From: a virus
Direction: 5' to 3' (one strand)
Virus record (IMG/VR): IMGVR_UViG_3300045988_180880
Coordinates: 319,950-383,949 of that record
DNA length: 64,000 nucleotides
Below, one piece after another: positions 3,151-60,940 of the stretch. Position 1 is the stretch's first letter, and every line of letters starts with the position of its first letter. The notes under the pieces were generated by a model, which searched no databases, was not told where the DNA came from, and saw nothing but the letters and a program-made list of their open reading frames with translations. The position numbers and the translations under genes are program-made.

Positions 3151-5505
3151 ATGTATTTAAGATTAGGAACAACTAATATAAAGTACTCCACTGAACAAGA
3201 TGATTTTACAGTATTTTCTGAAGTTGTAGATTCTAAGATGTCATATGAGAAACCAGTACTTGTGAGAACTCCTGATGAACTTGACATCTGGTTTGGATCA
3301 GATTTTCCAGGGAAAGATTATTACGATGAACTTTTAGAATCTGGAGTTACTTTATTTTTATATAGACCAATTAAGGTTGAACAAAATACTAATGCTCCTG
3401 ACTATATTGATCTAAAAGAATATTCTATAGATCAAAAATTATACTATAACTTAACAGAACTTCCAGAAGTCGGAGAAGATAAAGTTTTGTATAAAGTAGT
3501 AACAGGAGAAGGCGAATATAAAGAAGGAAATTTGTGGTATACTCTTTATATATATTATCTAGGAGAATATATGAAAATCCTAGAATTACCACAAAATCTT
3601 GACACTAATAATACGAGTTCTCTAGAAAATAGAGATGTATTAAATATAAATTATCCAGGTTTTATTGGACCTGAATATTGTTATCCGAAATATATAGAGG
3701 AAGGAGATGTTGATTATACTGAAAAAATTGATGAAGAAGTATTATTATCTCATCTTCCTGATCTGCTAAGAGTATCAAAAGGGTATGAAACTTTAGCTTA
3801 TTCCTTAGTATATAACCCTGAGATAGATTTTTACCCGGTAGACGAGGGATTAACTTCTAAATATATAATCCTGAAAAAACTTAAAAATGACTCTTATGAA
3901 AATATAATGATTTGGTTTAAAGAGGAAATTAATAGTATCCCTAATATTCCAAGTCAATATTATGATGAAGCAATTGAGGTTGAAATTAAAGCAAAAGAAA
4001 GTAATAAGGAAATTTTCAAGAGGTTAGTAGAAGTTATAATTCCAAGTCAATTAGGTTATACTATCGAAGGAAATATCTCGGAGGGTTACAAAATATACAC
4101 ATCATATTCTATTCAAGTTACCTATTTTACTAATATTACTGGTCTATTATTCGAACCAGATTTTAACACTACACACAATATACTATCAAAAATCTCGAGT
4201 GGAAGTACTAGAATGAGATTTATATCGAAAACAACTGGTACTGAAGGTGGAGATTCCGAATATTTAGATAGTGATATTAGTGTAAATATTGAGAAACTGA
4301 AGGGAGATGATAAATATAGAGTAACAATCGAGAGGTATAAATATCAAGAAATTTATGAAGGTGGTTTATTTACTATTGGACAGGAAAGGCTTGATACTAT
4401 AATTACTTCAGAGTCTAAGTTAGTTAGATGTATTCTTTCAACATCTTACGTAAATCGAGAGACAGATGAAGAGGTAGAGTATAAAAAAGGTTCTAAAGAA
4501 TCTGAATTACCCTCTGGAACATGGTATCTTAAACGAGCCTGGAAAGAAACGGCCGAAGATATAAATGGGGAATATTGGAAAGCGGCAGAGGCTATTTTTG
4601 GATCTGACAACGCTGGAATTATTGATTATTTCTTAGTCCCTGATATCTATAAATACTCGGCCGGAATGAAGACAGGCTCGGAGACTAGTTATTATCCAGA
4701 ATATGAGAGATTTTTAGGATATGCGAAGAGTTTAGGTTTTCAAGTATTATTCCAAAATTCTGATAATGGATGGACCTACGTAGAAACTCAAGAACTTCCA
4801 TCGGCCGAAGATATAACCTCAGGAACAATTTATATAGTATCACAACCTACTGGAGGAGTAAAATTCTATAAAGTAGAGAATGGAAACTTAATAGAAACAA
4901 CTGACCCTGAGGAAACTAATACGGCCGGAAATAACTACGTCTTTAATTATACCTCTGATGCTGATAATCGACTCTTATATTTTTATCGAGGGCAGACAAT
5001 TTTTGGGCAAGATAGACCTGGATATTACTTACATATTAGAGGGCTCTTACAAGATATTTACTCAATAACTAGCGATCAAATCTTATATCAAACACCTACA
5101 ACAGATCCTTACACCTTTGAATCACCAGAAGATAAACTTGAGGAATACAAAAGTAATTATCTAGTATTCAATAACCAGATATATTACTATAAAAAATATC
5201 AAAATGGACAAGACTTCAATACTTCAGGGTGGATGAGATTCTGTATAGGAAAAGTAGCGAGAGAATTGGAAAAGAATAAATGGAAAATTCTTAGTACTAA
5301 ATCAGCCGGAGATATAAGAGCTAGAATAGAACAGATCTTAAATAGGATATCAACTGGGTACTCATATATAGATTCATTAGTTATTACTGGATTTTACCTA
5401 GACTTACCAAATAATAGACTAGGACTTGAAGTGGAATCTAGAATGAGTGACTTAGTAGATAATGATATGACGATCGATATAACTTTAAATTACGATAAAA
5501 AATAA
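3151..5505 (+). CDS. putative contractile tail sheath protein
   Basis: 784-aa ORF immediately upstream of the tube gene, the canonical sheath-tube order. Size is in the sheath range. The C-terminal third has sheath-like blocks (NYLVFNNQIYYYKKY, WMRFCIGKVARELE). Called from synteny and weak motif recall only. Confidence 0.55.
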   Translation: MYLRLGTTNIKYSTEQDDFTVFSEVVDSKMSYEKPVLVRTPDELDIWFGSDFPGKDYYDELLESGVTLFLYRPIKVEQNTNAPDYIDLKEYSIDQKLYYNLTELPEVGEDKVLYKVVTGEGEYKEGNLWYTLYIYYLGEYMKILELPQNLDTNNTSSLENRDVLNINYPGFIGPEYCYPKYIEEGDVDYTEKIDEEVLLSHLPDLLRVSKGYETLAYSLVYNPEIDFYPVDEGLTSKYIILKKLKNDSYENIMIWFKEEINSIPNIPSQYYDEAIEVEIKAKESNKEIFKRLVEVIIPSQLGYTIEGNISEGYKIYTSYSIQVTYFTNITGLLFEPDFNTTHNILSKISSGSTRMRFISKTTGTEGGDSEYLDSDISVNIEKLKGDDKYRVTIERYKYQEIYEGGLFTIGQERLDTIITSESKLVRCILSTSYVNRETDEEVEYKKGSKESELPSGTWYLKRAWKETAEDINGEYWKAAEAIFGSDNAGIIDYFLVPDIYKYSAGMKTGSETSYYPEYERFLGYAKSLGFQVLFQNSDNGWTYVETQELPSAEDITSGTIYIVSQPTGGVKFYKVENGNLIETTDPEETNTAGNNYVFNYTSDADNRLLYFYRGQTIFGQDRPGYYLHIRGLLQDIYSITSDQILYQTPTTDPYTFESPEDKLEEYKSNYLVFNNQIYYYKKYQNGQDFNTSGWMRFCIGKVARELEKNKWKILSTKSAGDIRARIEQILNRISTGYSYIDSLVITGFYLDLPNNRLGLEVESRMSDLVDNDMTIDITLNYDKK

Positions 5506-5513
5506 TAAAAACT

Positions 5514-7016
5514 ATGGCAAGCGTAGCAAGTTTAGTCCGCGGAAGTGACGGATACATGAAATTTATTGACTATCAAAGTACATATAAAGATAATAATAAA
5601 GAATTCCTTCGTGGTGACATGTGGGAACTTCAATTCATTAATGTACCTAAGATAAATAATTGTCTTAGTAAAACTTTGTAAACTGCTGGAAGATCAAGTA
5701 AAGATAAATCAGCAAAAATAGATAAAAAATCTATTTCTCAACGACTATTAGCAAAGAAAAGAAATAGCCATAGATTTCTTTTATGATATAGTCTAAACAT
5801 AGAACAAATGTTTGAGTTTATTTCCCTGGTACTGATATTTTCAATGCTAGATTAAATGCCGTTCAGGTAGGTATTGATTATAGTGTATCAGGTTTTGAAA
5901 AGAGAATGCGTGGTAATTATACTATCATTCAGAAGACAGGTCAAAACACAGCTGGAACCCTGTCGTTGGCTTTTGTAGATAAGGAAGATCAGGCAATTAC
6001 TTACTGGTTTGATAATTTAAAAGTTGTCCATTAAGAGATTAAAAGTTCCTTAATGAATCTTTGTGAACTGCTGGAAATTTTAATCGCTCAAGAATGATAA
6101 AAACTAAGAGCGGAAAAATAATCAGCAGAAATAGATATGATTCTATTTTTCAACGACTAAGTACAAAGAAAGAGGATAAGCCATAGTTCCTCTTATGATA
6201 TAGTCTAGTATGATTTAAAACAAAAACCATAAGGACTATCGCCAGAAAATTGCAGATCGTGATACTAAATATTCTTTCAGAAAGGATGACTTAGTATGCG
6301 ACCTTAGATTAATCTTAACTAACTCAAGCCGTATCAAAGTTCGTACTCTTAATTTCTATAACTGTATTCTTCAGGATGCACCGATTGATGAAAATGGGCA
6401 GACTGAGGACGGAACCGATTAATAGCTTAGTCGCTTAAATAATAAAATTTAAGAAAATTATACTAAAATGCTGGAAAAATCTTGGTTATACCAAGTATAA
6501 ATCAGCAAAAACTATTAAAAATAGTTTCTCAACGACTAAATGTATAACTTAAGAAGTATTAATTCTTAAGATGATATAGTCTATAATATATTAATGTATA
6601 TTAACAAATGCGAGCAGATATCCAAGTCAGCTTTTTCAAATGAAGAAGCATAAAGTAATATAAACTTTATGAAAAATTCTATTAAAATGCTGGAATATCA
6701 AATAGATAATCAGCAAAAATTAGAAAAGATCTAATTTCTCAACGACTAAATATAGAACTAAGTTTGAAATATAATTTAGATGATATAGTCTATTCATTGA
6801 TAAAAATAATTAATGACTTTAAAGCAATTTGAACATTTTGGAAAATTTCATGGTGTTTTCTACAAGAATTGCTGGAAAATTTGTATCTTTGTATACAAAT
6901 AATCAGCATCCTAGATATTAACATAAATCTAGGTTCAACGACTATGTATGTAGACTGAGGAAATTCCTTAGGTGATATAGTCTGTCATGAGGTGAAATTC
7001 ATTGATTAACGTATGA
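5514..7016 (+). CDS. tail tube protein (T4 gp19-like), split by five group I introns
   Basis: join(5514..5653,5815..6016,6234..6419,6611..6634,6816..6836,~7005..7016). The spliced product is ~194 aa: ...RGDMWELQFINVPKI|VYFPGTD...AITYWFDN|DYRQKIADRD...GQTEDGTD|RADIQVSF|TLKQFEH|(INV). It is collinear with T4 gp19 landmarks as I recall them (PNLFQVEI; GFMNRKI..DDWTVTVMNDE..KFVDW; NEIQTFEVTLALDYWE). The six-frame track has no ORF at all in 5506-7086. The last exon is uncertain. Confidence 0.75.
5654..5814 (+). ncRNA. group I intron 1 (ORF-less, 161 nt, no P2)
   Basis: P1 is ctaagat/gtcttag (5647-5653/5662-5668) with a U5653-G5662 wobble at the 5' splice site. P3 ctttg/caaag (5674-5678/5752-5756). 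P4 tgctg/cagca (5684-5688/5710-5714). P7 gacta/tagtc (5743-5747/5789-5793). P9 aaacat/atgttt. Terminal G5814. The classical P/Q/R/S blocks are ctgctgg, aatcagca, tcaacgacta and gatatagtct. Confidence 0.85.
6017..6233 (+). ncRNA. group I intron 2 (ORF-less, 217 nt)
   Basis: P1 gataat/gttgtc (6011-6016/6023-6028; U6016-G6023 wobble). P2 cattaag/cttaatg (6029-6035/6049-6055). P3 ctttgt/acaaag (6059-6064/6163-6168). Core blocks: ctgctgg 6068-6074, aatcagca 6120-6127, tcaacgacta 6150-6159, gatatagtct 6197-6206. Extended P5 cgctc/gagcg. Terminal G6233 restores the frame. Confidence 0.8.
6420..6610 (+). ncRNA. group I intron 3 (ORF-less, 191 nt)
   Basis: P1 cgat|taa / ttagtcg (6416-6422/6427-6433; U6419-G6430 wobble; tetraloop tagc). 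P2 cttaaat/atttaag (6434-6440/6447-6453). P3 tatac/gtata (6459-6463/6542-6546). Core blocks: tgctgg 6469-6474, aatcagca 6500-6507, tcaacgacta 6529-6538, gatatagtct 6573-6582. Terminal G6610. Confidence 0.8.
6635..6815 (+). ncRNA. group I intron 4 (ORF-less, 181 nt)
   Basis: P1 gcttt|ttc / gaagaagc (6630-6637/6642-6649; U6634-G6645 wobble; loop aaat). P2 cataaag/ctttatg (6649-6655/6665-6671). P3 ttctat/atagaa (6677-6682/6752-6757). Core blocks: tgctgg 6688-6693, aatcagca 6708-6715, tcaacgacta 6739-6748, gatatagtct 6782-6791. Terminal G6815. Confidence 0.8.
6837..7004 (+). ncRNA. group I intron 5 (ORF-less, ~168 nt; 3' boundary uncertain)
   Basis: P1 gaacat/gtgttt (6831-6836/6853-6858; U6836-G6853 wobble). 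P3 tctaca/tgtaga (6859-6864/6949-6954). Core blocks: tgctgg 6870-6875, aatcagca 6901-6908, tcaacgacta 6935-6944, gatatagtct 6974-6983. P5 atttgtat/atacaaat and P6 cctagat/atctagg. Candidate terminal G at 6989, 6991, 6994, 7004 (used here) or 7011. Confidence 0.65.
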
Positions 7017-7170
7017 AAGAACTTTTGATAATATTTAAAAAAATAACTTAATAAACTAGAAGTATCTAATTTATTATTTCTTATGATTGCAAGGAAGGGT
7101 GGATCTGATCAATCTGCCCTTCTTCATAAGAAATATATTAGATATTTCCTTAAAAAAAATTGCAATCAAT

Positions 7171-8013
7171 ATGAAACTTAGAGCAAAAGATACTGAAAGT
7201 TTTATTCAAAAAAGTAAAGATAAATATGGTGAAGATGCTTTAGATTATTCTGAAGTAAACTATATTGATAAATTAACTCCTGTAAAACTAATATGTAAGA
7301 AATGTGGGAATATATTTTATCAATCACCAGCAGAACATTTAAGAGATAGAAAGAAAATATCTTGTCCTAAATGTGCAGTAATAGATTCCAGAGAAAGAAG
7401 GTCTATTAAACAGAAAGAAGTTTGGTTAAGGAAATGTAAAGATAAGTTTGGAGATAAATTTGATTACTCTAAAGTTAATTACATAAATAATAAATTAGAT
7501 GTATGGATTTATTGTAATAGTTGTAAAAAATGGTTTAAACAATCTCCACATCATCATATTAGAAATATTCATGGATGTCCTTTCTGTGCAATGAAAGAGA
7601 AATCTGGATATGAATTTATGGTTGAGAGTTATCTTGAATATTTAGTAAAAAATGATAAAACGTTATCATATAATTCAGAATACAGTATTTTAAATAGGAT
7701 AGCGGGAAGGAATTCTAACAAAATAATGATAGATTTTAAATTAAATATAAATAACTTAGAATATTGGATAGAAGTTAATGGTCAGCAACATTACAAATTT
7801 ATAAATTTCTTTCATAAAACAAAAGAAGATTTCCAAAAACAATTAAAAAGGGATGAAAATGTTAGAGAATACTGTAAAGAAAATAATATAATTCTCATAG
7901 AAATTCCATATACTTACAATACATATGAGAAAATATCTGAAGTTCTAAGAAGAATTTTAATTGGTGGTGAATCTCCAAATATAATAGTTCAGCCAAAAAT
8001 AATACAACCATAA
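7171..8013 (+). CDS. free-standing homing-endonuclease-like protein (two Zn-finger repeats + Vsr/DUF559-like PD-(D/E)XK C-terminal domain)
   Basis: Two tandem repeats of the pattern KYG(E/D)..DYS.VNY...V.I.C..C...F.QSP..H.....CP.C. The C-terminus IDFKLN..LEYWIEVNGQQHY...RDENVREYC..NNIILIEIPY matches the DF...IE.dG..H..Rd pattern of Vsr-like endonucleases. The listed ORF starts at TTG 7087; I prefer ATG 7171 (MKLRAKD...). Confidence 0.65.
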   Translation: MKLRAKDTESFIQKSKDKYGEDALDYSEVNYIDKLTPVKLICKKCGNIFYQSPAEHLRDRKKISCPKCAVIDSRERRSIKQKEVWLRKCKDKFGDKFDYSKVNYINNKLDVWIYCNSCKKWFKQSPHHHIRNIHGCPFCAMKEKSGYEFMVESYLEYLVKNDKTLSYNSEYSILNRIAGRNSNKIMIDFKLNINNLEYWIEVNGQQHYKFINFFHKTKEDFQKQLKRDENVREYCKENNIILIEIPYTYNTYEKISEVLRRILIGGESPNIIVQPKIIQP

Positions 8014-8585: not shown

Positions 8586-9505
8586 TCATATTAAGAAAAT
8601 ACCCAGAGGAACAGAAAGAATTTAGTATACTTTCAGAAATATCTCAATTGGGTTTAAGGAAAGGAACGAAAAATTATATCAGGAAACAAAAAAGAGATGT
8701 GGTGAACAAATTAATTCAAAATAAACGAGATTTTCTTGCAAAAACGAAGAAGACAGAAAGAAAATTGACTAATCTTCGAAAAGAAACAAAAGAGAATGAA
8801 TTAATAGCCAATAATCTGAAAAAAGAAGCTAATAGAGTAAACACTGATATAATACCCGATAATAAATTTTCTAAACTAGTACATCAGCCTAAAGGAGATA
8901 AATCCTATATTCTCGATAAAGAAAAGAGAAATCTACTTAAGCAAATGTCTAATGATAAAAATTTGGATAAAGCTAGTAGAGAGTTAGCCAGATCAAGTTC
9001 GGCCAAAGATGCAATTATAAATCTTAACTCTGATGCAATAGGAAAAGACACCCCGTTTGTTGCCCATGAACTAGGTCATGTTAAAAATAGTAAAAAATCT
9101 ATTAATTCTGCAATTCAAAAACTAGCTGATAAATCTAATAATAGTAAAGGAATATTAGCTGATATTGGGAAAAGAACTATTGGAATTCAAGAAGAAAATA
9201 ATGCCTGGAAAAATGGAATAAAGGATTTAAAAAAGGCTGGTGCAACGAAAGAAGAGATTAAACATGCCAAAAGTCTAGAAAATGCTGCAGTAGATACATA
9301 TAGAAAAGGAAATAGTTTAAGAAATAACTTAAATGAAAAGCTATTAAATAAATTACATCCAAAAGAAATAGATAACTATAAAGTATTTCCTGGATCTCAT
9401 AAAGAAGAAAAAGATTTAATGGAACTTTTTGGAGATAAAGGAAGAACTGAAAGACAGAAATATAATTTAAGAAGAAAAATAATAAATAAAAGGAAATCTA
9501 AATAA
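8582..9505 (+). CDS. leader-family protein with HExxH metallopeptidase-like motif
   Basis: N-terminus MIILRKYPEEQKEFS. HELGH at 9065-9079, followed by EENNAWKNGIKDLKKAGATKEE. This block is shared with the 10430, 14828 and 20729 products. Confidence 0.75.
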   Translation: MIILRKYPEEQKEFSILSEISQLGLRKGTKNYIRKQKRDVVNKLIQNKRDFLAKTKKTERKLTNLRKETKENELIANNLKKEANRVNTDIIPDNKFSKLVHQPKGDKSYILDKEKRNLLKQMSNDKNLDKASRELARSSSAKDAIINLNSDAIGKDTPFVAHELGHVKNSKKSINSAIQKLADKSNNSKGILADIGKRTIGIQEENNAWKNGIKDLKKAGATKEEIKHAKSLENAAVDTYRKGNSLRNNLNEKLLNKLHPKEIDNYKVFPGSHKEEKDLMELFGDKGRTERQKYNLRRKIINKRKSK

Positions 9506-9526
9506 TTATATACTATTATAAAAAAA

Positions 9527-9578
9527 ACAATAAAGAAGAGTAACTTTGATCGGTTACTCTTCTACTAAAACAATTACT
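9527..9578 (+). promoter_or_regulatory. conserved 5' block with hairpin (copy 2 of 2)
   Basis: acaataaagaagagtaactttgatcggttactcttctactaaaacaattact. Perfect hairpin agagtaac/gttactct. Confidence 0.6.
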
Positions 9579-9752
9579 ATGAGCCTACTAAATATATTAC
9601 TTCCTAGACAAAGGATGATAAATCAAGAAATAAAAAGTCTTGAAGAAAAACTTGGATTAACCGAAAGAGATACAAAAACTCTTTTCTATGATCCACATTA
9701 TATTAGAAATAAATCATTTCAAACAAGAAAAGATTATCTAAACTATAACTAG
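9579..9752 (+). CDS. hypothetical protein, short paralog of the 8070 gene
   Basis: ATG 9579 (MSLLNILLPRQRMINQEIKSLEEKLGL..FYDPHYIRN), 57 aa. The listed ORF 9546 begins at a TTG inside the upstream hairpin, which I rejected. Confidence 0.55.
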   Translation: MSLLNILLPRQRMINQEIKSLEEKLGLTERDTKTLFYDPHYIRNKSFQTRKDYLNYN

Positions 9753-9815
9753 AAAAAAATGATAGGGCGCTAAAATGCTTCTCTAAAAGTAAGAAAAAAC
9801 ATTAGAAGGATAAAA

Positions 9816-9844
9816 AAGAAGATCAACTTTTCGTCAATCTTCTT
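9816..9844. terminator. hairpin terminator between convergent genes
   Basis: aagaagat/atcttctt stem. The U-run is good on the minus strand (after gene 9853..10122) and weaker on the plus strand. Confidence 0.55.
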
Positions 9845-9852
9845 TGTAGGGA

Positions 9853-10122
9853 CTATTTAAGTGATTCTTTATATTCTTTTATCTCTTTACCACATTGATA
9901 GATCAATTCAGAAATACCTTCTGCACTTTCTAATGTATCTGTATTATCTAATACATTAGATACAACTTTACACCAATGTCTATCTTTTTCAGAAAGAGAA
10001 TCTGGATTTTTCTTATATTTATACATCATTTCTGCACCTAAATTATACCCTGCACCTTTTACCAATTTAAAAGCTGCTATAATTGATATAGTAGCTAATC
10101 CAATTTTTAATAATGTTTTCAT
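9853..10122 (-). CDS. small membrane protein, hypothetical
   Basis: 89 aa with an N-terminal hydrophobic helix (LLKIGLATISIIAAFKLV). Promoter-like motif ~24 nt upstream and a terminator downstream. Confidence 0.7.
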   Translation of the reverse strand: MKTLLKIGLATISIIAAFKLVKGAGYNLGAEMMYKYKKNPDSLSEKDRHWCKVVSNVLDNTDTLESAEGISELIYQCGKEIKEYKESLK

Positions 10123-10145
10123 ATCTTTTATATATTTTATTTATT

Positions 10146-10162
10146 ACATATATAAGGCTTTT
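10146..10162 (-). promoter_or_regulatory. promoter-like motif (AAAGCCTTATATATGT family)
   Basis: Plus strand reads acatatataaggctttt, which is aaaagccttatatatgt on the gene strand. It lies ~24 nt upstream of ATG 10122. Confidence 0.6.
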
Positions 10163-10184
10163 ACTCCTTCCAAAAATTAATATC

Positions 10185-10214
10185 GGGGGGGGGTAAAAGT
10201 ATAAACAATTCCTC
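10185..10214 (+). promoter_or_regulatory. G9-tract element upstream of a leader-family gene (divergent copy)
   Basis: gggggggggtaaaagtataaacaattcctc, with the G9 run at 10185-10193. It ends ~18 nt before ATG 10232. Confidence 0.5.
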
Positions 10215-10231
10215 TTCGATACAAATATTAA

Positions 10232-10408
10232 ATGATTATAAAACGTAAACTATTTTCTAAAGATTCAAAAGTTCTCGTCCCTTATTTTGAACCTGGCATT
10301 ACTGAAACTGGTAGACGATACGTAACACTAATCACTAACGATGGAAGAAAGAAGCGGCAATATATAGATCCGTATAGAAAGAGAACTAAAAAAGAATTAG
10401 AAAACTAA
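10232..10408 (+). CDS. leader-family small protein (58 aa)
   Basis: The ORF lies between the listed ORFs 9853..10122 and 10563..11228 and is absent from the track. MIIKRKLFSKDSKVLVPYFEPGITETGRRYVTLITNDGRKKRQYIDPYRKRTKKELEN. Confidence 0.6.
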   Translation: MIIKRKLFSKDSKVLVPYFEPGITETGRRYVTLITNDGRKKRQYIDPYRKRTKKELEN

Positions 10409-10429
10409 CTTAACTTATTAATTAAAATT

Positions 10430-11228
10430 ATGATAATCAAAAGAAAACTGTTTAGTAAAAAAAGAGGAGAATAAAAACTTCAATGACACTAGTTCAAAAG
10501 CAAAAGGAACTGCTTTATATCTTGGAGGTGCGGTAGCGGGTCAAGGTATCGCTGCACCTATAATGATGAAACATATGCAAGACGAACCCTCAGAAGAATC
10601 TGCAAAAATAGCTGAAAAACTAAAAAGATTAGCTTCTAGACGAGGACATAAAGTAGATAATATTACATATACTGGAATGGGACCTGCATATCAAAATAAT
10701 AAAATTTATACAAGTGGAACAAAAGCAGCTGATGTTCTTTCACATGAAATGGGACATGCTCACTATGATAAAAGAAAAGTAAAATCAGTAAGTGATGCTA
10801 TTGGTAAAGTTGCTCATAAAGCTTATCTAAAAACTGGTGGAATGTTGAATCATACAGTTCTAGCTCCTACAGCAGGAATAATAGCAGGTGTTAGATCAGG
10901 TAAAAAAGCAGCAGAAAAAGAAGCAGCCGGAGAAAAAGAATCAAAACTCTCCAGACATAGTGGATGGGCATCTGGTTTAGCTGTTCAATCTCCAGGGCTA
11001 GTATCAGAGGCTATGGCAAGTAAACATGGTCTAGATTTAATGAAAAAAGCTGGTGCCTCTAAGAAATTAATGAAAGCTAGTCGAAAAAACCTAGGTGTAG
11101 CTTTAGGAACTTATGCTGGAGTTGCTGTAACTAATGCAGGAATGTCAGAATTAGCTAGAGGAATTGCATATAGAAAGAAAAAGAAAAAATTAGAGAAGGA
11201 AAAAGATAAAAAGAAAGATGATAAATAA
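10430..11228 (+). CDS. leader-family HExxH protein, reading frame interrupted at an A7 run
   Basis: ATG 10430 gives MIIKRKLFSKKRGE, with a stop at 10472-10474. The +1 frame is open from 10455 through the listed ORF 10563..11228 (..KKEENKNFNDTSSKAKGTALYLGGAVAGQGIAAPIMMKHMQ...). HEMGH at 10743-10757. Removing one A from the run at 10457-10463 restores a family-typical protein. Confidence 0.55.
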
Positions 11229-11242
11229 CTAATATCATCTTT
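11214..11242. terminator. bidirectional hairpin terminator
   Basis: aaagatgat/atcatcttt 9-bp stem, with an A-run upstream and a T-run downstream. Sits between convergent genes and overlaps the stop of 10563..11228. Confidence 0.55.
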
Positions 11243-11256
11243 CTTATAAATCGTAA

Positions 11257-11331
11257 CTAAAATATCTTTCCAAAATGACGAAAGTATTTAAAAAAGTTAC
11301 GATAACCAATAAATAATCCTAATCCTTTCAT
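11257..11331 (-). CDS. possible 24-aa peptide (MKGLGLFIGYRNFFKYFRHFGKIF)
   Basis: First ATG 21 nt downstream of promoter-like motif 11353-11370, the same spacing as at bona fide genes. No other support. Confidence 0.3.
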   Translation of the reverse strand: MKGLGLFIGYRNFFKYFRHFGKIF

Positions 11332-11352
11332 AATCTTATATATTTTATATAT

Positions 11353-11370
11353 CACATATATAAGGCTTTT
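11353..11370 (-). promoter_or_regulatory. promoter-like motif
   Basis: Plus strand reads cacatatataaggctttt. Confidence 0.5.
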
Positions 11371-11395
11371 AAGGAATATAGAGTGTAAAACTATA

Positions 11396-11460
11396 AATCC
11401 TGGGAAAGTTTGGGATATAACTGCCCAGGAACTAATTAAATAAAAATAAAGAGCTATATG
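11396..11460 (+). repeat. ~60-nt CCTGGG-hairpin element, copy 1
   Basis: aatcctgggaaagtttgggatataactgcccaggaactaattaaataaaaataaagagctatATG is near-identical to 20672-20731. Here only a 14-codon ORF follows (MIFQKKYKNLERNI). Confidence 0.8.
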
Positions 11461-11606
11461 ATATTCCAAAAGAAGTACAAAAATCTGGAAAGAAACATTT
11501 AAGTAATGCATTTAGAATCCATGAAATTAATGAAGTTAAGAAAATAATCTCAGATAATACTAATAGACTTCTTGGAAAAATAGAAATAAATAAAGAGATT
11601 TGGAAA

Positions 11607-11897
11607 CTAATCCAAATCTCTAATCTCAATAGCATAATAACCTTCAGGAATATTCCATACCCCTGGATCTAATGCATTTGTGGGTATTTCTGTATTTTCA
11701 TTGATAGGATACAAGTCTACTCTTTTATGATCAAGCCAATCTGAACAAGGAGTTTTTGATGTATTATGATAATCCTTTAAAAAGATTAATTCATTTCTTT
11801 TTACTCTCATACTTTTATTAGATTTATTAAGATTTTCTACTATTTTTTCAAATCTTAGCATAGGATTTTCTATAGAGCTAATATCTTTATCATCCAT
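11607..11897 (-). CDS. hypothetical protein
   Basis: Listed ORF 11607..11975 trimmed to the first ATG after the upstream gene (MDDKDISS...). The C-terminus LYPINENTEIPTNALDPGVWNIPEGYYAIE is paralogous to the 11911 product. Confidence 0.65.
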   Translation of the reverse strand: MDDKDISSIENPMLRFEKIVENLNKSNKSMRVKRNELIFLKDYHNTSKTPCSDWLDHKRVDLYPINENTEIPTNALDPGVWNIPEGYYAIEIRDLD

Positions 11898-11910
11898 AAT
11901 TTTATAATAT

Positions 11911-12114
11911 TTAAATGTTAATTTCAATAGTGTAGTAACCTTCTGGAATATTCCATATCTCAGAAGATAATGCATTTTTAGGTACTTCTGTATTTTCGTT
12001 AATAGGATATAACATTACTATTTTATAATTACATTCTAAATGAGATCTTATTATATCTTTCTCTTCATCAGTAAGTTTTTTCTCAATTACCGCTTCTTTG
12101 ACTATTCTTTTCAT
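11911..12114 (-). CDS. hypothetical protein, paralog of the 11607 gene
   Basis: 67 aa, with the promoter-like motif upstream. C-terminus LYPINENTEVPKNALSSEIWNIPEGYYTIE. Confidence 0.65.
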   Translation of the reverse strand: MKRIVKEAVIEKKLTDEEKDIIRSHLECNYKIVMLYPINENTEVPKNALSSEIWNIPEGYYTIEINI

Positions 12115-12140
12115 AATTCTACGTATTTAAAATTTATATT

Positions 12141-12157
12141 ACATATACGAGGCTTTC
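12141..12157 (-). promoter_or_regulatory. promoter-like motif (variant)
   Basis: Plus strand reads acatatacgaggctttc, ~27 nt upstream of ATG 12114. Confidence 0.5.
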
Positions 12158-12647
12158 AAATTGATAAAAAGGAGGTTTTATATAGGTTTGTCCCTTATTT
12201 ATGAGGACAAAGGAGTTTCCCTTATCCTACACCTCTAACCGCTACCGCTAGAGGTGTCTTAGAAAAGAAACATTGAATAAGATATATAGGAAATTTTAAT
12301 ATAATATCATTTTAATTAAGTTGACACCCCTTTGGCCTCTGGGGGCCAGGGGTGGTGTTTCTAGATTAAAAGCTCATAGAAATCCTAAACATAAATATTC
12401 CATGTCTCCGACATAATCTTATGTTCTTTATCTATATGAGCAAGTGTCGCAAATTCTTTAGATAATATCTTTTATAGTGGAGAGTCAAAAATAATAAATT
12501 AAATCGACAAAATGCGTATAATATCCTTTCAATCCCTTATGATTGAAAAGGGAATCCTCCTATGTCTTCAATTTAAAGAGACATAGAAATTCTTTTAACT
12601 GGATTCTCTATTAGATTATAATAAATTTAATAAAAAATTATACGTAT
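12158..12647 (+). promoter_or_regulatory. long structured ORF-poor leader upstream of the helicase-like gene
   Basis: ~490 nt with no listed ORF. Blocks cttatttatgaggacaaagga (12194-12214) and tgaataagatatatag (12274-12289) are shared with the inverted paralog's leader. GC-rich hairpin at 12324-12358 has G-U pairs valid only on the + strand. Further hairpins: acacctcta/tagaggtgt, atgtc/gacat, ctatgtct/agacatag. Confidence 0.55.
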
Positions 12648-14720
12648 ATGTCAATACTAAAATTACCTAATATCGTAGTACCAAGAGGTATTAGATATAT
12701 TTCAGAAATGGATAGTTTATTTAGATTTTATAAACTACCTGTAAAGTGTATAATTAATAAGCAACTTCCTGGATGTGGTTTTACAGAATACTGTATTAAT
12801 GGACCAGAAAATGTTATTCTGTGTAGTCCTAGAAAAATGCTCTTAAAGAATAAGAAGGATCAACATGGTAGAGATGTTTATTTGGTTGTAAATGAACTTG
12901 AGAAGGAAATAGAGGTTGATAAAGATCTCTCCAAGATAGATAAAATTAGATCTCAAGTATTTATGGATACTCTTAAAGAAGTAGTTCATGGAAAGGATAC
13001 AGTTTATAATAAATTAATGAATGAAATTAAAGATTATCTAAATGAGAGGAAGTACTTAGGGGATAAGCCCGCTAAGATCTTAGTTACATATGATTCATAT
13101 AGAATAGTAAAAGATATTCTAAAAAGTCTTGGAATATTTCAGAGTTTCTATACAGTAATAGATGAATTTCAAACTATCCTACATGATTCTAAATTTAAAT
13201 CAGATACTGAATTAGAATTCTTAGATATTCTTAAGCAATCTCATAGTGCATTATTTGTATCAGCTACTCCTATGTTAGAGGAATATCTTAATATGTTAGA
13301 TGAGTTTGATGGTTTACCTTATATTAATATGGATTGGGGTAAGGAGGATTCAACACGAATTATTAAACCAAATCTTAAGGTTTTATCTATGAAATCTACT
13401 GGATCTAAAGCAGAAGAGATCATAAAAACATATAAAGAGGGTAACTTTGAAAAATTTATCAAAATGGTTAATGGATATCCTAGGGAAATAATATCAGATG
13501 AAGCAGTGCTTTATGTAAACAGTGTGAATCATATTATATCTATCATCAAGAAATGTGATTTACAACCTGAAGAAGTAAATATCCTCTGTTCTAATACTCC
13601 TGAGAATCTAAAAAGAATACAAAAGAAATTAGGAAAGAAGTTTGTAATAGGGGAAGTTCCATTGAAAGGAGTAAAATCTAAAATGTTTACATTTTGTACA
13701 AGAACGGTTTACCTAGGCGCGGATTTCTATAGTTTATGTGCTAGATCTTTTATCTTTAGTGATAGTAATATAGATAGTCTAGCCGTAGATATCTCAGAAG
13801 ACTTGCCTCAGATATTAGGACGTCAGAGATTGTTTGATAATCCTTGGAAAAATAATGCAATATTTTATTATAGACCTACATGTGACTATAGAAAGGTTAG
13901 TCAAGAGGAATTTGATAGAGAGATTGAGAGAAAGAAAAAAGCTACTAATGATTTACTACTGTCATATAGTTCAACTCCTGATGAGGCAAAATTAACGTTG
14001 GCTGAGAGATATCAAAAAATGGCAAAGTCATTTAATTATAAAGATGACTATGTAGCAGTAAATGAACACTCCAGGTCTACTCTAATTCCTGTTATTAATA
14101 ACCTAGTTCTGGTAAATGAAATTAGAGCCTTCAGGATACAACAATATGACTATAAGGATAGATTTACAGTATTTAGTTCAGTACATAATACACTAGATAC
14201 AAATGATCTAATAAATCGAGAGGTTTCTGAATTTTTAAGTATGTATCAAGAATTAAAAACATACTATGATAAAATAAAATTACTATGTGAATATAACTTA
14301 TCTGAGCAGGGGGTTAGAATAATATTAGATCAGTTAGGAGGAGATGAGATAGCATCTCACTATATAGCATTGGGTCCTGATAGATTAAGGAAACTTTATT
14401 ATAATAAAACTAACATTAAGAAGGAACTAGGTATAGTAACCTTCAGTAGGGAACTCTTAGTTAATACAGTTCTCTCCAAGTTTTCTATTGGAGATAGAAT
14501 AGGTCAAGCAAGGATAAAAGAAATTCTTAAAAGTCTATATAATTCTATTGGATATTCTGCTATTCCAAAGGCTACTGATTTGGAAGAATTCTTTAATATA
14601 AAAAGAGCAAAAGTTAGTGAAGTTCTTTTAGATGGTACAAAAAAAAGAATAGATGCATTAGAGATAATAGGAGTTAAGCCAGAGTATCAAGGAATATATA
14701 ATAACCTGAAAAAACAATAA
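12648..14720 (+). CDS. SF2 helicase-like protein with lysine-less P-loop and family-specific C-terminal module
   Basis: Motif I-like LPGCGFTE (12768-12788). Motif II DEFQ (13161-13172). Motif III SAT (13260-13268). Motif V-like TRTVYLGADF. Motif VI QILGRQR (13809-13829). The C-terminal ~290 aa is shared with 55852, 57282 and 58309. Confidence 0.75.
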   Translation: MSILKLPNIVVPRGIRYISEMDSLFRFYKLPVKCIINKQLPGCGFTEYCINGPENVILCSPRKMLLKNKKDQHGRDVYLVVNELEKEIEVDKDLSKIDKIRSQVFMDTLKEVVHGKDTVYNKLMNEIKDYLNERKYLGDKPAKILVTYDSYRIVKDILKSLGIFQSFYTVIDEFQTILHDSKFKSDTELEFLDILKQSHSALFVSATPMLEEYLNMLDEFDGLPYINMDWGKEDSTRIIKPNLKVLSMKSTGSKAEEIIKTYKEGNFEKFIKMVNGYPREIISDEAVLYVNSVNHIISIIKKCDLQPEEVNILCSNTPENLKRIQKKLGKKFVIGEVPLKGVKSKMFTFCTRTVYLGADFYSLCARSFIFSDSNIDSLAVDISEDLPQILGRQRLFDNPWKNNAIFYYRPTCDYRKVSQEEFDREIERKKKATNDLLLSYSSTPDEAKLTLAERYQKMAKSFNYKDDYVAVNEHSRSTLIPVINNLVLVNEIRAFRIQQYDYKDRFTVFSSVHNTLDTNDLINREVSEFLSMYQELKTYYDKIKLLCEYNLSEQGVRIILDQLGGDEIASHYIALGPDRLRKLYYNKTNIKKELGIVTFSRELLVNTVLSKFSIGDRIGQARIKEILKSLYNSIGYSAIPKATDLEEFFNIKRAKVSEVLLDGTKKRIDALEIIGVKPEYQGIYNNLKKQ

Positions 14721-17136: not shown

Positions 17137-17898
17137 ATGAATATTTTAACATCACAATTACCATCAGGAGGATATGGATATAAATTCCCAAGTGTTAAGG
17201 TTAGTCCTATGACATTCTTAGAGATAACGAGATATCTTGAGAATCTTCCTTCTGATGATCCACTAGAAAAATACTTATATGATATCAACTTACTTATCCA
17301 GGAAGATGAAACTATCCTAGATTGTTATTTAATGGATGTAGATTTCTTGATATTTTATAAAAAGCTTTGTACGGTTTCTGGAGAATTATCTTATGAAATT
17401 GAGGTAACATGTCCAGAATGTGGAAAGAAAATGAAAAAAACTATATCCTTCGAGAAAGATATACACTTTAAACAGATCGATCAAAAGATTATGAATGGTG
17501 CTTTTATTGAACTCGGTGGACATAGATACGAGACTATAGTTCCGACAGTTAGAGAATTTATGAAGGTTTTTCAAACTTACCTTAGATATCGAACTGTAAC
17601 TGATCTTAAGATGATTAAAACTATAGCACTGATTAAAGATTTTGATTATCAGGGAACACAGATTGAAAAAGATGTCCTTGGGGCTACTCACTCTGATGTT
17701 ACACTTCTCTTAGCTTTACGTGACTTATATTATGATCGTCTTGAGCCAGTTCAATTGTTTTGTTCAGAATGTAATAAAGGTAAAAAACCGAAGGAAAGGA
17801 GGAGTGTGGCAGTAAGTGTAGAATCTCTTACTGTCGACTTCTTTCGAGACATCTGTAACAATTCCCCAATTGATGGATCTAAAATTTTATTTAAATAA
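17137..17898 (+). CDS. hypothetical Zn-ribbon protein
   Basis: 253-aa ORF with CPECG...CSECN cysteine pairs. Confidence 0.7.
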   Translation: MNILTSQLPSGGYGYKFPSVKVSPMTFLEITRYLENLPSDDPLEKYLYDINLLIQEDETILDCYLMDVDFLIFYKKLCTVSGELSYEIEVTCPECGKKMKKTISFEKDIHFKQIDQKIMNGAFIELGGHRYETIVPTVREFMKVFQTYLRYRTVTDLKMIKTIALIKDFDYQGTQIEKDVLGATHSDVTLLLALRDLYYDRLEPVQLFCSECNKGKKPKERRSVAVSVESLTVDFFRDICNNSPIDGSKILFK

Positions 17899-18154
17899 AT
17901 TTCTTAAGGCAGATGGAATAGAGAATTATACATTGAGTTCTCTTAAAGCTCTTAGGGAATGTTATGAGAATTTTCTTGATACTACTGAAGGAACTGATCC
18001 AGACTTCCCATTACTTAATTTTGGTGGTAAGAAGGGACAGAGGCTTAAGGGTATATCAGCAGCACAGCGCCAAGCCTACTATGAATCTGAAGCTGAGAGA
18101 AAAGAAATGATGGGTGAGGGAGGAATAATAAATGTAAACATTTTAGACTTATGA
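17870..18154 (+). CDS. hypothetical protein
   Basis: 94-aa ORF overlapping the previous gene by 29 nt in the +1 frame. Its stop overlaps ATG 18151 (ATGA). Confidence 0.55.
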   Translation: MMDLKFYLNKFLKADGIENYTLSSLKALRECYENFLDTTEGTDPDFPLLNFGGKKGQRLKGISAAQRQAYYESEAERKEMMGEGGIINVNILDL

Positions 18155-18938
18155 TTATAAAACGTAAATTATTTAGTCAGAAAAAAAAGAATCTGATGAC
18201 AAACTTAAGAGGGCCGCATCAATAGCCGGAGGAGCGGTAGTTACTAAAGAAGGATTGAATATACTAGATAATGTACATCAATCTGGAGAAGTATCTGGTA
18301 GGGTTAGATTATATCATGGAACTACTAAGAAAAATAAGAAGAAAATACTAGAAGAAGGTTTGAAAGGTGAAAAAGCTCTTACTAGTGATGCTATTACTAA
18401 TTAAAGAATAGGTGATGTTGGTAAAAAGTTTGGGAAGAAGATAGTATATACTGGAAAAAAGAGAGCGCCAGCGATTGACATGATAGTATCTCACGCAATG
18501 AATGCTGAAACACCTTCTATGGTTAGGATGTCAATTCCCTACAAAGAGTATCAGAACATGAGGTCTAGGAGAGTATATGAGAATCCTGAATTTACTATCG
18601 CTCACAATGCAAAAACTAAAAAAGAGTTTGCTGAGGATATGAAGAATAATATATTTCATCCAATGACTAAGAGAGAAGCTAATAAATATTATGATAAGTT
18701 TTCTGGTGCTAAAGGAACTTCTGGAACAAGAATTTTTGAAGGTGATATTGAATCTAAATATATAAAAGGAGGAAAAGGTTATCAAAAAAATTCTATCAAA
18801 GAGGTTGGAAAATATATTAAAAAGAATCCTAAACGTTTTGCTAAGGGTCTTGGAAAAGCTTCTCTTGGTGCTGGATTAATTGCAGGAGGAGCGGCATTAG
18901 CTATCAAAGGTGGAAAAAAGAAAGATAATACTGAATAA
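18151..18938 (+). pseudogene. leader-family paralog of the 19019 gene, disrupted by a frame break at A8 and an in-frame TAA
   Basis: ATG 18151 gives MIIKRKLFSQKKKN.., with a stop at 18223-18225. The -1 frame from 18189 (ESDDKLKRAASIAGGAVV..RLYHGTTKKNKKKILEEGLKGEKAL..) runs into listed ORF 18480..18938, apart from one TAA at 18402-18404. It aligns with the 19019 product along its whole length. Rescue by recoding is also possible (see findings). Confidence 0.55.
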
Positions 18939-60939: not shown

Positions 60940-60940
60940 T

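What the first reader, a model, noticed from the sequence alone, without database searches (positions are those of the whole stretch)
5514..7016. Tail tube gene split by five ORF-less mini group I introns within 1.5 kb
The 5506-7086 gap has no ORF in any frame. It contains five spaced copies of the classical group I P/Q/R/S blocks:
- (c)tgctgg(a) pairs with aatcagca (P4).
- tcaacgacta pairs with gatatagtct (P7, gacta/tagtc).

Between these blocks the sequences differ, yet every copy keeps complementary P3, P5, P6, P8 and P9 arms with different sequences. For P3 these are ctttg/caaag, ctttgt/acaaag, tatac/gtata, ttctat/atagaa and tctaca/tgtaga. That is hand-checked covariation.

Each copy has a P1 hairpin that places a U-G wobble at the proposed 5' splice site. 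For introns 1-4 a terminal G restores one continuous frame.

The joined exons give a ~194-aa protein collinear with T4 gp19 tail tube landmarks, including IQVSF|TLKQFEH against IQTFEVTLALDYWE across two junctions.

The introns are only 161, 217, 191, 181 and ~168 nt, and two lack P2. That is at the small end of natural group I introns. Five in one short structural gene is an unusually high density for a phage.
Basis: partly seen in the sequence, partly recalled or inferred. Interest (0 to 1): 0.9.

Follow-up and report, generated by a model that had tools for sequence, protein, structure and literature searches.

The report
Phage tail-tube gene with five introns
A 588-base tail-tube gene of a large human-gut phage is split by five very small (161-220 nt) group I introns with no protein-coding content, leaving exons as short as 12 and 24 bases. 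It is an extreme case of an intron infestation that was recently described for gut jumbo phages.

Summary
Window 5514-7038 (+) holds six exons and five paralogous group I introns that encode no protein. All five match Rfam Intron_gpI below its threshold (20-36 bits; gathering score 50). [quoted passage not shown] Base-pair covariation is strong, both among the five copies and across 36 distinct relatives.

The corrected introns are 5654-5814, 6014-6233, 6420-6610, 6635-6824 and 6837-7011. The spliced CDS is 588 nt (195 aa). It aligns without gaps to uninterrupted homologues (90% aa identity).

Near-identical phages naturally lack intron 1 or intron 2, and their sequence is joined at exactly the predicted junctions. 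The product has the tail-tube fold and follows the sheath gene.

Relatives carry 5-7 introns at 8 sites in this gene. A free-standing HNH homing-endonuclease gene lies just downstream; some relatives have it and some lack it.

The window matches human-gut huge phages of about 378 kb. These are probably the "Jug" phages, for which about 18 small group I introns per genome were published in 2025/26. I rate it a striking new member of a known kind. Splicing itself was not tested.

The parts
3151..5505 (+). Tail sheath gene (784 aa), immediately upstream of the split gene
   Evidence: AF2 model with pLDDT 84. Top Foldseek PDB hits are T4 gp18 sheath (9mkb, 3j2m, 3foa), DSY3957, Lin1278 and the KP1 sheath, E 1e-6 to 1e-4. 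No sequence-family hit.
5514..5653 (+). Exon 1 (140 nt; aa 1-46 plus 2 nt), ends in U
   Evidence: Alignment to uninterrupted homologues. Relatives L175/176/177, which lack this intron, read ...CCTAAGAT|AGTTTATT....
5654..5814 (+). Intron 1, 161 nt, no P2, ends in G
   Evidence: RF00028 29.3 bits; model R1 44.7-47.3 bits. P1 is CUAAGAU/GUCUUAG with U.G; 4-bp P10. Absent, with exact boundaries, in L175-177.
5815..6013 (+). Exon 2 (199 nt)
6014..6233 (+). Intron 2, 220 nt, with P2 and a P5 extension, ends in G
Evidence: RF00028 36.1 bits, E 4e-7. Relative L172 lacks it and reads ...GGTTTGAT|GACTATCG..., which puts the insertion at 6014-6233. P10 AGUU/GACU forms only with a 5' splice site at 6013.
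6234..6419 (+). Exon 3 (186 nt)
6420..6610 (+). Intron 3, 191 nt, with P2, ends in G
   Evidence: RF00028 29.9 bits. P1 CGAU/GUCG extended by UAA/UUA; P10 GCUU/GAGC. Orthologues of 167-196 nt in relatives.
6611..6634 (+). Exon 4, micro-exon of 24 nt (RADIQVSF)
6635..6824 (+). Intron 4, 190 nt, with P2, ends in G6824
   Evidence: RF00028 20.3 bits, E 0.003 in a local scan; model R1 39.8 bits. P1 GCUUU/GAAGC. P10 is favourable (-4.2 kcal/mol) only with the 3' splice site at 6824. Homologues read ...F-QFEH..., without TLK.
6825..6836 (+). Exon 5, micro-exon of 12 nt (CAATTTGAACAT = QFEH)
   Evidence: Nt 3-7 form P10 of intron 4 and nt 7-12 form P1 of intron 5.
6837..7011 (+). Intron 5, 175 nt, no P2, long P1 hairpin, ends in G7011
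   Evidence: RF00028 27.1 bits; model R1 60-65 bits. P1 GAACAU/GUGUUU. A 7-bp P10 (UUUCAUG/UAUGAAA) forms only with the 3' splice site at 7011.
7012..7038 (+). Exon 6 (YERTFDNI + TAA)
   Evidence: Matches the conserved C-terminus FEHYxRxFxN(I/L/V) of homologues.
7087..8013 (+). Free-standing HNH/VSR-type homing-endonuclease gene (likely start ATG 7172), 50-130 nt downstream of the tube gene
   Evidence: phrog_559 'HNH endonuclease' 3e-35 and other homing or intron-encoded nuclease PHROGs. Pfam DUF4379 treble-clef zinc finger. Present in some near-identical relatives and absent in others (L175-177, L188, L195).

Best explanation
The tail-tube gene (the T4 gp19 equivalent) of a roughly 378-kb human-gut myophage is interrupted by five small group I introns that encode no protein. 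They belong to a family found throughout this genome and in other phages.

**Proposed mechanism**
- The gene is transcribed as one pre-mRNA.
- Each intron folds into the group I core: P3-P9 with the P3/P7 pseudoknot, a guanosine pocket at the G-C pair next to the bulged C in P7, and J4/5 and J8/7.
- An internal guide sequence pairs with the last 3-7 nt of the upstream exon (P1). This puts a U.G wobble at the 5' splice site.
- An external guanosine attacks there.
- P10 then aligns the downstream exon, and the terminal G directs ligation.
- Five such reactions join six exons (140, 199, 186, 24, 12 and 27 nt) into a 588-nt mRNA for a 195-aa tube protein.

**Shown here:** the sequence anatomy, the covariation, the exact collinearity of the spliced CDS, natural alleles that lack an intron, and the folds of the tube and sheath proteins.

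**Inferred:** that splicing actually happens, whether it is autonomous or needs protein help, and its order.

**Spread (also inferred):** the introns lack their own endonuclease. They probably spread at the DNA level with the help of free-standing homing endonucleases, such as the HNH gene directly downstream, and/or by reverse splicing. The tube gene is a favoured target because it is by far the most conserved gene of the module.
For: **Group I identity**
- All five give RF00028 hits.
- The minimum-free-energy folds recover most of P1-P9.
- Among the five copies, 255 of 256 pair cells are canonical and 43 of 62 pairs change on both sides. P4 and P7 never vary.
- Across 36 distinct family members aligned with model R1, 93.8% of cells pair. 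Slid controls give 35-49% and shuffles 64%, with 0 of 500 shuffles reaching the observed value. The covariation score is 0.651, against 0.06-0.15 for slid controls. Every pair of P3, P6 and P8 covaries.

**Boundaries**
- Every intron is preceded by U and ends in G.
- P1 and P10 duplexes fit the corrected sites.
- The spliced CDS is 588 nt, the same length as the uninterrupted gene L111:4250-4837, and aligns to it without gaps. It is 90% identical in protein to P0001.
- 382 uninterrupted homologues of about 195 aa exist.
- Alleles with identical exons lack intron 1 (L175-177) or intron 2 (L172) and are joined at exactly 5653|5815 and 6013|6234.

**Gene identity**
- The product (modelled from P0001) has the tube fold: T4 neck-tail and baseplate-tube complexes, T4 gp19 (5w5f), phiKZ, AFP/PVC tubes, and many proteins named 'tail tube protein' in BFVD.
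- The upstream gene is the sheath.
- A tape-measure-like gene and fibre-like genes lie downstream.

**Population evidence**
- The same split gene occurs in at least 17 independent IMG/VR contigs. Exons are 95-100% identical and intron content varies.

**Published context**
- Small group I introns (mean about 206 nt, 18.5 per genome) are reported in gut Jug phages. Metatranscriptome reads supported 37 of 76 (PMC12880540).
Against: - There is no RNA evidence for this gene.
- All five score below Rfam's gathering threshold (20-36 bits against 50), and whole-window scans miss them.
- The introns are very AT-rich (21-31% GC), and some helices are tiny: P5 has 3 bp in introns 1 and 4, and P1 has 3 exon-side pairs in intron 2. 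Autonomous folding in vitro is therefore uncertain.
- P1 of intron 2 offers two U.G pairs (U6013 and U6016), so its 5' splice site is set by comparison with relatives, not by structure alone.
- The hand alignment and the model-derived alignment were both fitted to the structure, which inflates the paired percentages. The slid and shuffled controls only partly offset this.
Confidence: 0.9

Rival explanations
1. The reader's original splice boundaries are the ones used: 5' splice site of intron 2 at 6016, 3' splice site of intron 4 at 6815, 3' splice site of intron 5 near 7004. The product would then carry an extra Asn and TLK and end in ...FEHINV.
For: For intron 2 only: U6016 lies in a U.G pair at the top of a 6-bp P1 (GAUAAU/GUUGUC), which is more stable than the 3-bp exon-side P1 of the 6013 model.
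Against: - All aligned homologues lack the extra N and TLK, and all end in FEHYxRxFxN(I/L/V).
- Allele L172, which lacks intron 2, is joined at 6013|6234.
- G6815 is base-paired inside P9.
Confidence: 0.05
2. The elements are decaying, splicing-dead intron relics or a non-intron repeat family, and this tube gene copy is a pseudogene. [quoted passage not shown]
For: - Rfam scores are below threshold.
- The introns are very small with minimal peripheral elements.
- No RNA data exist for this gene.
Against: - All exons keep an open frame, and they are 95-100% identical across at least 17 contigs.
- Each copy keeps an intact core, with compensatory changes rather than random decay.
- Each has its own guide sequence matched to its own flanking exons (P1 and P10) and a terminal G. 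A cleaving-only ribozyme or a dead relic would not need these.
- No second tube homologue was found in the window. The rest of the genome was not searched.
Confidence: 0.04
3. The introns are genuine but do not self-splice. They depend on a phage or host protein (a maturase, chaperone or the neighbouring nuclease) to fold, so splicing works as a regulated, late-expression checkpoint for tail assembly.
For: - GC content is 21-31%, P5 is only 3 bp, and no clear tetraloop-receptor pairs were seen.
- In Bastillevirinae, four of the eight validated intron-containing genes spliced only in infected cells (PMC11878797 abstract).
Against: Nothing here argues directly against it. It refines the best explanation rather than contradicting it. 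No candidate cofactor was identified.
Confidence: 0.3

Closest known systems
Group I introns of 'Jug' jumbo gut phages (Sci Adv 2026, PMC12880540; preprint PMC12363816)
   Same: - The hosts are human-gut huge phages of 360-402 kb, about 30% GC, T4-like, using the standard genetic code.
[quoted passage not shown]
- Free-standing HNH genes are numerous.
- The window is 99-100% identical in neighbouring proteins to IMG/VR contig 3300045988_180488 (377,817 bp, human gut, GC 29.7%). That contig is listed in the paper's huge-phage collection as huge_phage_1602.
   Different: - The main text names terL, nrdD and DNA polymerase. It does not mention the tube gene, five to seven introns in one gene, or micro-exons.
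[quoted passage not shown]
- I could not confirm that the window belongs to the Jug clade, because the supplementary tables are truncated in the held copy.
Staphylococcus phage Twort orf142: three group I introns in one 142-codon gene (Landthaler & Shub 1999, doi 10.1073/pnas.96.12.7005, cited in PMC4853749)
   Same: Several self-splicing group I introns without ORFs sit in one short phage gene. The introns are paralogous. Exon skipping between neighbouring introns was documented there.
   Different: - Here there are five introns (up to seven in relatives) in 195 codons, against three.
- Exons go down to 12 nt.
- From my own knowledge, the Twort introns are about 250 nt with IA2 peripheral elements (P7.1/P7.2). 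The introns here are shorter and lack those elements.
crAss-like Zeta-group MCP gene split into five fragments (Nat Commun 2021, PMC7886860)
   Same: A structural gene of a gut Bacteroidota phage is heavily fragmented by group I introns, with up to 14 introns per genome.
   Different: Those introns were recognised by the endonuclease domains they encode, so they are large. The introns here carry no ORF and are 161-220 nt.
ORF-less psbA intron of cyanophage S-PM2 with an adjacent free-standing homing endonuclease (Zeng, Bonocora & Shub 2009; cited from my own knowledge, not checked here)
   Same: A group I intron without its own endonuclease lies in a conserved phage gene, and a free-standing homing-endonuclease gene lies immediately downstream. 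This is the 'collaborative homing' model.
   Different: No cleavage specificity is known for the HNH gene here. Whether relatives carry it does not track their intron content in any simple way.
Azoarcus pre-tRNA-Ile intron, about 205 nt, the textbook 'small' self-splicing group I intron (my own knowledge)
   Same: A compact core with short or no peripheral domains.
   Different: Azoarcus is GC-rich, has P2 and is held together by tetraloop-receptor contacts. The introns here are 21-31% GC. Two lack P2, and four of the five are shorter than 205 nt (161-191 nt).

Membership tests
Group I intron (Rfam RF00028) | P1 helix between an internal guide sequence and the 5' exon, with a U.G wobble at the 5' splice site | tested here: met
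   All five have U at -1 paired to a G that starts a complementary guide sequence. There are 3-7 exon-side pairs, and the sequences differ between introns to match their different exons.
Group I intron (Rfam RF00028) | Terminal guanosine (omega-G) at the 3' end and P10 pairing with the 3' exon | tested here: met
   All five end in G at the boundary required by collinearity. P10 duplexes score -0.9 to -4.5 kcal/mol at those sites and are unfavourable at the alternative sites.
Group I intron (Rfam RF00028) | Conserved core P3-P9 with the P3/P7 pseudoknot, supported by covariation | tested here: met
   Five copies: 255 of 256 cells paired, and 43 of 62 pairs with compensatory change. 36 distinct relatives: 93.8% paired against 35-49% for slid controls, covariation score 0.651 with 0 of 500 shuffles reaching it. 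P7 was not in the CM because it forms a pseudoknot; it is invariant (GACUA/UAGUC) in all five.
Group I intron (Rfam RF00028) | Guanosine-binding site: a G-C pair in P7 next to a bulged nucleotide | tested here: inconclusive
   The sequence A-C(bulge)-GACUA / UAGUCU fits the canonical arrangement. This is read from the sequence only; no 3D or biochemical test was done.
Group I intron (Rfam RF00028) | Score at or above the curated Rfam gathering threshold (50 bits) | tested here: not met
   20.3-36.1 bits and nothing at gathering level. This is a curation cut-off, not a biological feature. Small AT-rich introns lack many of the model's positions.
Group I intron (Rfam RF00028) | GTP-dependent splicing with exon ligation | not testable with these tools
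   Support is indirect only: natural alleles lacking an intron and uninterrupted homologues are joined at exactly the predicted junctions.
Contractile-tail tube protein (T4 gp19-like fold) | Tube-family beta-sandwich fold | tested here: met
   AF2 model of the 90%-identical homologue P0001 (pLDDT 73). Foldseek probability 1.00 to T4 neck-tail and baseplate-tube proteins, T4 gp19 (5w5f, E 1e-4), phiKZ, P1 and AFP/PVC tubes, and to many BFVD 'tail tube protein' entries. The fold is shared with the tube-terminator and tube-initiator paralogues.
Contractile-tail tube protein (T4 gp19-like fold) | Gene located directly downstream of the tail sheath gene | tested here: met
   The upstream 784-aa protein has the sheath fold. 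The order sheath-tube is kept in more than 70 related loci.
Contractile-tail tube protein (T4 gp19-like fold) | Membership of a curated tube sequence family (Pfam / PHROG / NCBIfam) | tested here: not met
   No hit for the spliced product or for 64 homologues. A PDB profile search found nothing either.
Jug (jumbo gut) phages | Genome of 360-402 kb, about 30% GC, from the human gut, rich in small group I introns and free-standing HNH genes | tested here: inconclusive
   Window GC is 27-33%. The nearest contig is 377,817 bp, human digestive system, GC 29.7%, and is in the paper's collection. TerL/MCP identity to Jug genomes and the clade list (table S3) could not be checked.
Mobile (homing) group I intron | Intron-encoded homing endonuclease | tested here: not met
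   The introns are 161-220 nt, and no ORF longer than 55 aa overlaps them. An HNH gene stands free downstream.
Mobile (homing) group I intron | Presence/absence polymorphism at a fixed site among otherwise near-identical genomes | tested here: met
   Intron 1 is absent in L175-177 and intron 2 is absent in L172. Further sites (aa ~166, 168, 173) are occupied only in relatives.

The most novel reading that the evidence does not exclude
These AT-rich introns of 161-190 nt, partly without P2, may be among the smallest natural group I introns that still carry out complete splicing. They would do so in tandem across exons of only 12 and 24 nt, where a single exon serves as P10 for one intron and P1 for the next.

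The last 21 codons of the tube gene hold six of the eight insertion sites seen in the population. This could be a hot spot created by an arms race. Free-standing homing endonucleases, such as the adjacent HNH gene, would cut alleles that lack introns. Endonuclease-less introns would spread as 'immunity' insertions that destroy the cut sites.
Probability: 0.25. Interest if true: 0.7.

Novelty: new member of a known kind. Interest (0 to 1): 0.5.

Why it matters
**Annotation.** Gene callers split this essential structural gene into fragments or miss it. Rfam at default thresholds finds none of the five introns, so tube genes of a very prevalent gut phage lineage are probably mis-annotated. The sheath protein cluster of this lineage has 739 member sequences.

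**RNA biology.** This natural series of compact ribozymes comes with a built-in comparative data set: paralogues, orthologues and alleles lacking an intron. It can be used to ask how small a splicing-competent group I intron can be, and how tandem introns cope with exons of 12-24 nt. That question bears on minimal ribozyme design, for example permuted intron-exon systems for making circular RNA.

**Phage evolution.** Variable occupancy of eight sites in a 588-nt gene, next to a mobile HNH gene, is a tractable system for studying how introns without their own endonuclease spread.

Tried and rejected
- **Rfam over the whole window:** no hits at gathering level or by E-value. Only local scans detect the introns.
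- **Sequence-family searches of the spliced product and the sheath:** Pfam, PHROGs, NCBIfam and PDB sequence or profile searches found nothing usable.
- **GenBank phages:** tblastn found no match. blastn found only a 140-nt, 72% match of intron 3 to an unannotated stretch of Staphylococcus phage PB50.
- **Getting a hand alignment into the alignment tool:** MAFFT re-gapped the N-padded version. I therefore counted pairs in Python (the first parse mishandled the P3/P7 pseudoknot). I built the CM from sequences trimmed to equal length.
- **Did the five introns arise by expansion inside the gene?** Rejected. Intron 4 is 87% identical in the core to an intron at another locus of the related genome (L064). 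It is only 57-72% identical to its neighbours in the tube gene.
- **A 37%-identity 'second copy' of aa 131-183 in L176/177/188:** a spurious tblastn hit. It lies inside introns of a second type and has stops in every frame.
- **More introns elsewhere in the window:** none of either type by nhmmer or CM. None in the ORF-poor stretch 9400-12700 by a local Rfam scan. No tRNAs.
- **Literature on the smallest known group I intron:** nothing usable.
- **Confirming Jug clade membership from the preprint's tables:** failed, because the held file is truncated.
Full report
**1. What is there**

Window 5506-7086 has no ORF longer than 55 aa. It contains five spaced copies of the blocks TGCTGG ... (A)ATCAGCA ... 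TCAACGACTA ... GATATAGTCT.

At its gathering threshold, Rfam reports nothing in the window. A whole-window scan by E-value is also empty. Local scans tell a different story:
- A scan of 5400-7200 gives four RF00028 (Intron_gpI) matches: 36.1, 29.9, 29.3 and 27.1 bits, with E from 4e-7 to 2e-4.
- A scan of 6615-6845 gives the fifth: 20.3 bits, E 0.003.

I built a sequence profile and a covariance model (R1) from the five copies. Each finds exactly these five in the 64 kb and nothing else, even with filters off.

**2. Exact anatomy**

The best is 88% identical.

Aligning them shows that junctions 1 and 3 are right.

The corrected model:

| Part | Coordinates | Length |
|---|---|---|
| Exon 1 | 5514-5653 | 140 nt |
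| Intron 1 | 5654-5814 | 161 nt |
| Exon 2 | 5815-6013 | 199 nt |
| Intron 2 | 6014-6233 | 220 nt |
| Exon 3 | 6234-6419 | 186 nt |
| Intron 3 | 6420-6610 | 191 nt |
| Exon 4 | 6611-6634 | 24 nt |
| Intron 4 | 6635-6824 | 190 nt |
| Exon 5 | 6825-6836 | 12 nt |
| Intron 5 | 6837-7011 | 175 nt |
| Exon 6 | 7012-7038 | 27 nt, including TAA |

The joined CDS is 588 nt. It aligns base for base, without a gap, to the uninterrupted 588-nt gene L111:4250-4837. The protein is 90% identical to P0001.

Every intron follows a U and ends in a G. Intron 1 is in phase 2 and the others are in phase 0.

**3. Independent proof of two boundaries**

IMG/VR holds at least 17 contigs whose exons are 95-100% identical to the window but whose intron content differs.
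- L175, L176 and L177 lack intron 1. They read ...CCTAAGAT|AGTTTATT..., which is 5653|5815 exactly.
- L172 lacks intron 2. It reads ...GGTTTGAT|GACTATCG..., which is 6013|6234 exactly.

For introns 3-5 only more distant relatives lack the intron. There the boundary rests on three things: collinearity, the U/G rule and P10.

**4. RNA structure**

Minimum-free-energy folds of each intron already recover most of P1-P9.

I fixed a structure by hand for each copy: P1, P2 (absent in introns 1 and 5), and P3-P9, with P3 and P7 crossing as a pseudoknot. The counts on that alignment:
- 255 of 256 pair cells are canonical.
- With the 3' partner slid by 1-3 columns, 34-44% pair.
- Column shuffles give a mean of 71% and a maximum of 79%.
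- 43 of 62 pairs change on both sides (shuffle mean 20, maximum 30).
- P4 and P7 never vary. P1, P2, P3, P5, P6, P8 and P9 covary.

The structure was fitted copy by copy, so I also made a family-wide test. Model R1 aligned 59 matches (36 distinct) from the window and from IMG/VR loci. On that alignment:
- 93.8% of 991 cells pair. Slid controls give 35-49% and shuffles 64%, with 0 of 500 shuffles reaching the observed value.
- The covariation score is 0.651, against 0.06-0.15 for slid controls.
- 25 of 30 pairs show changes on both sides. That includes every pair of P3, P6 and P8.

That alignment is fitted to the model, which inflates the absolute percentage. The gap to the slid controls is still large.

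The 5' strand of P7 reads A-C-GACUA against UAGUCU. This is the classical bulge next to a G-C pair, which is where the guanosine site lies in known introns. That last point is read from the sequence and from textbook knowledge; it was not tested.

**5. Guide sequences**

Each intron has its own P1, matched to its own upstream exon:

| Intron | P1 (exon / guide) |
|---|---|
| 1 | CUAAGAU / GUCUUAG |
| 2 | GAU / GUC |
| 3 | CGAU / GUCG |
| 4 | GCUUU / GAAGC |
| 5 | GAACAU / GUGUUU |

In every case the splice-site U faces a G.

The nucleotides just 5' of each guide G can pair with the start of the downstream exon (P10). Energies are -0.9 to -4.5 kcal/mol. The best case is a 7-bp P10 for intron 5 (UUUCAUG/UAUGAAA).

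Intron 2 keeps some ambiguity. U6013 and U6016 both lie in U.G pairs of one helix. The allele lacking the intron, the homologues and P10 all favour 6013.

The 12-nt exon 5 is almost fully used by its two neighbours. Nt 3-7 form P10 of intron 4 and nt 7-12 form P1 of intron 5.

**6. What the gene is**

No sequence family recognises the product. The evidence comes from fold and position:
- An AF2 model of the 90%-identical homologue P0001 (pLDDT 73) matches tail-tube-fold proteins with Foldseek probability 1.00. The hits include T4 neck-tail and baseplate-tube complexes, T4 gp19 (5w5f, E 1e-4), phiKZ, P1 and AFP/PVC tubes.
- It also matches many BFVD entries named 'tail tube protein'.
- The upstream 784-aa protein (AF2 pLDDT 84) matches T4 gp18 and other sheaths.
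- The gene order is therefore sheath then tube, as in T4 genes 18-19. The order is kept in more than 70 related loci.
- A tape-measure-like gene and fibre-like genes follow.

The fold is shared with the tube-terminator and tube-initiator paralogues. 'Major tube protein' is therefore the most likely assignment, not a proven one.

The tube protein is far more conserved than the sheath. In L116, for example, the tube is 90% identical and the sheath 55%; across the other loci the sheath is 24-41%. High conservation is typical of genes colonised by homing elements. That is my inference.

**7. The wider family and mobility**

The five tube-gene introns are only 57-72% identical to each other in the core. 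Intron 4 is 87% identical to an intron at a different locus of the related genome (L064). The gene was therefore colonised repeatedly from a family spread across the genome. The introns did not multiply inside the gene.

Close relatives carry further introns in this same gene:
- One of the same type lies near aa 166.
- One or two of a second type lie after aa 168 and aa 173. Their RF00028 scores are 21.7-25.8 bits.
- Alleles have 5, 6 or 7 introns, at eight sites in total: aa 47, 113, ~166, 168, 173, 175, 183 and 187.

Directly downstream of the tube gene lies a free-standing endonuclease gene of the HNH/VSR type. It matches phrog_559 at 3e-35 and carries a treble-clef zinc finger. Among near-identical relatives some have it and some lack it, so it is itself mobile. 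Whether it mobilises the introns is not shown.

**8. Which phage, and what is already known**

The neighbouring proteins are 99-100% identical to those of IMG/VR contig 3300045988_180488. That contig is 377,817 bp, from the human digestive system, with GC 29.7%. It is listed as huge_phage_1602 in the huge-phage collection of the Jug-phage paper. The window's GC is 27-33%.

That paper (PMC12880540) reports the following for Jug phages (360-402 kb, about 30% GC, T4-like, Bacteroides/Phocaeicola hosts):
- 2513 group I introns in 136 of 139 genomes, or 18.5 per genome;
- a mean length of about 206 nt;
- many stand-alone HNH genes;
- metatranscriptome support for 37 of 76 introns.

Its main text names terL, nrdD and DNA polymerase. 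It does not mention the tube gene. I could not check whether the window's lineage is formally a Jug group, or whether these five introns are in its table S8.

Two other precedents for multi-intron phage genes:
- Twort orf142, with three introns (Landthaler & Shub 1999, cited in PMC4853749);
- the crAss-like Zeta MCP gene, split into five fragments (PMC7886860).

In Bastillevirinae the non-coding part of phage group I introns averages 350 +/- 108 nt (PMC11878797). The introns here are at the small end.

**9. Verdict**

It is an extreme example of a kind of element, in a kind of phage, that has recently been described: five introns and exons of 12 and 24 nt in a 588-nt gene, with the smallest intron at 161 nt. 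I rate it a new member of a known kind.

What is not shown: that the RNA is spliced, whether splicing is autonomous, and how the introns move.

Noticed in passing
window 7087-8013 (likely start 7172): A free-standing HNH/VSR-type homing-endonuclease gene lies directly after the tube gene (phrog_559 3e-35; DUF4379 zinc finger). Among relatives with near-identical flanks, L172, L180, L186, L187, L189, L192 and L193 have it. L175-177, L188 and L195 lack it. It is therefore a mobile element in its own right.
   Followed up: partly
L185:4616-4815; L188:4814-5225 (also L172, L175-177, L186, L190-195): Close relatives carry one or two extra introns of a second sequence type in the same tube gene. These have the core ...GTAAGTAAATTCGGTGAAAGG...AACGAATAAAGACTTAC... 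and score 21.7-23.7 bits against RF00028. They lie after aa 168 and aa 173 and create micro-exons of 15-30 nt. L188 has seven introns in the gene. The window has none of this type.
   Followed up: partly
L064:~1467 (contig IMGVR_UViG_3300045988_180488): An intron at another locus of the related genome is 87% identical in the core to the window's intron 4. That is closer than any intron within the tube gene. I did not identify the gene it interrupts.
   Followed up: no
window 3151-5505: The sheath protein has no Pfam, PHROG, NCBIfam or PDB-sequence hit and was recognised only by fold. Its 97%-identical cluster (P0122) has 739 member sequences and sits on a 382,648-bp contig. This suggests a very prevalent lineage that is poorly annotated.
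   Followed up: partly
window 1-64000: Rfam whole-window scans, both at gathering level and by E-value, return nothing. Yet five real group I introns are present. Standard pipelines would miss them and would call the tube gene as fragments. P0002, which ends ...DRSDPKTC...HII, appears to be one such case, with the call running on past the last exon residue.
   Followed up: partly
window 9505-12650, 17898-18480, 60336-60941: These stretches are ORF-poor. 9400-12700 contains only small ORFs and has no Rfam hit at E <= 0.1. The other gaps were not examined individually. The whole window has no tRNA genes.
   Followed up: partly
window 6455-6594 vs OR770614.1:42733-42851: The only GenBank phage DNA match to the region is 72% identity over about 140 nt. 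It joins intron 3 to an unannotated stretch of the 274-kb Staphylococcus phage vB_StaM_PB50, which may be an unannotated related intron there.
   Followed up: no
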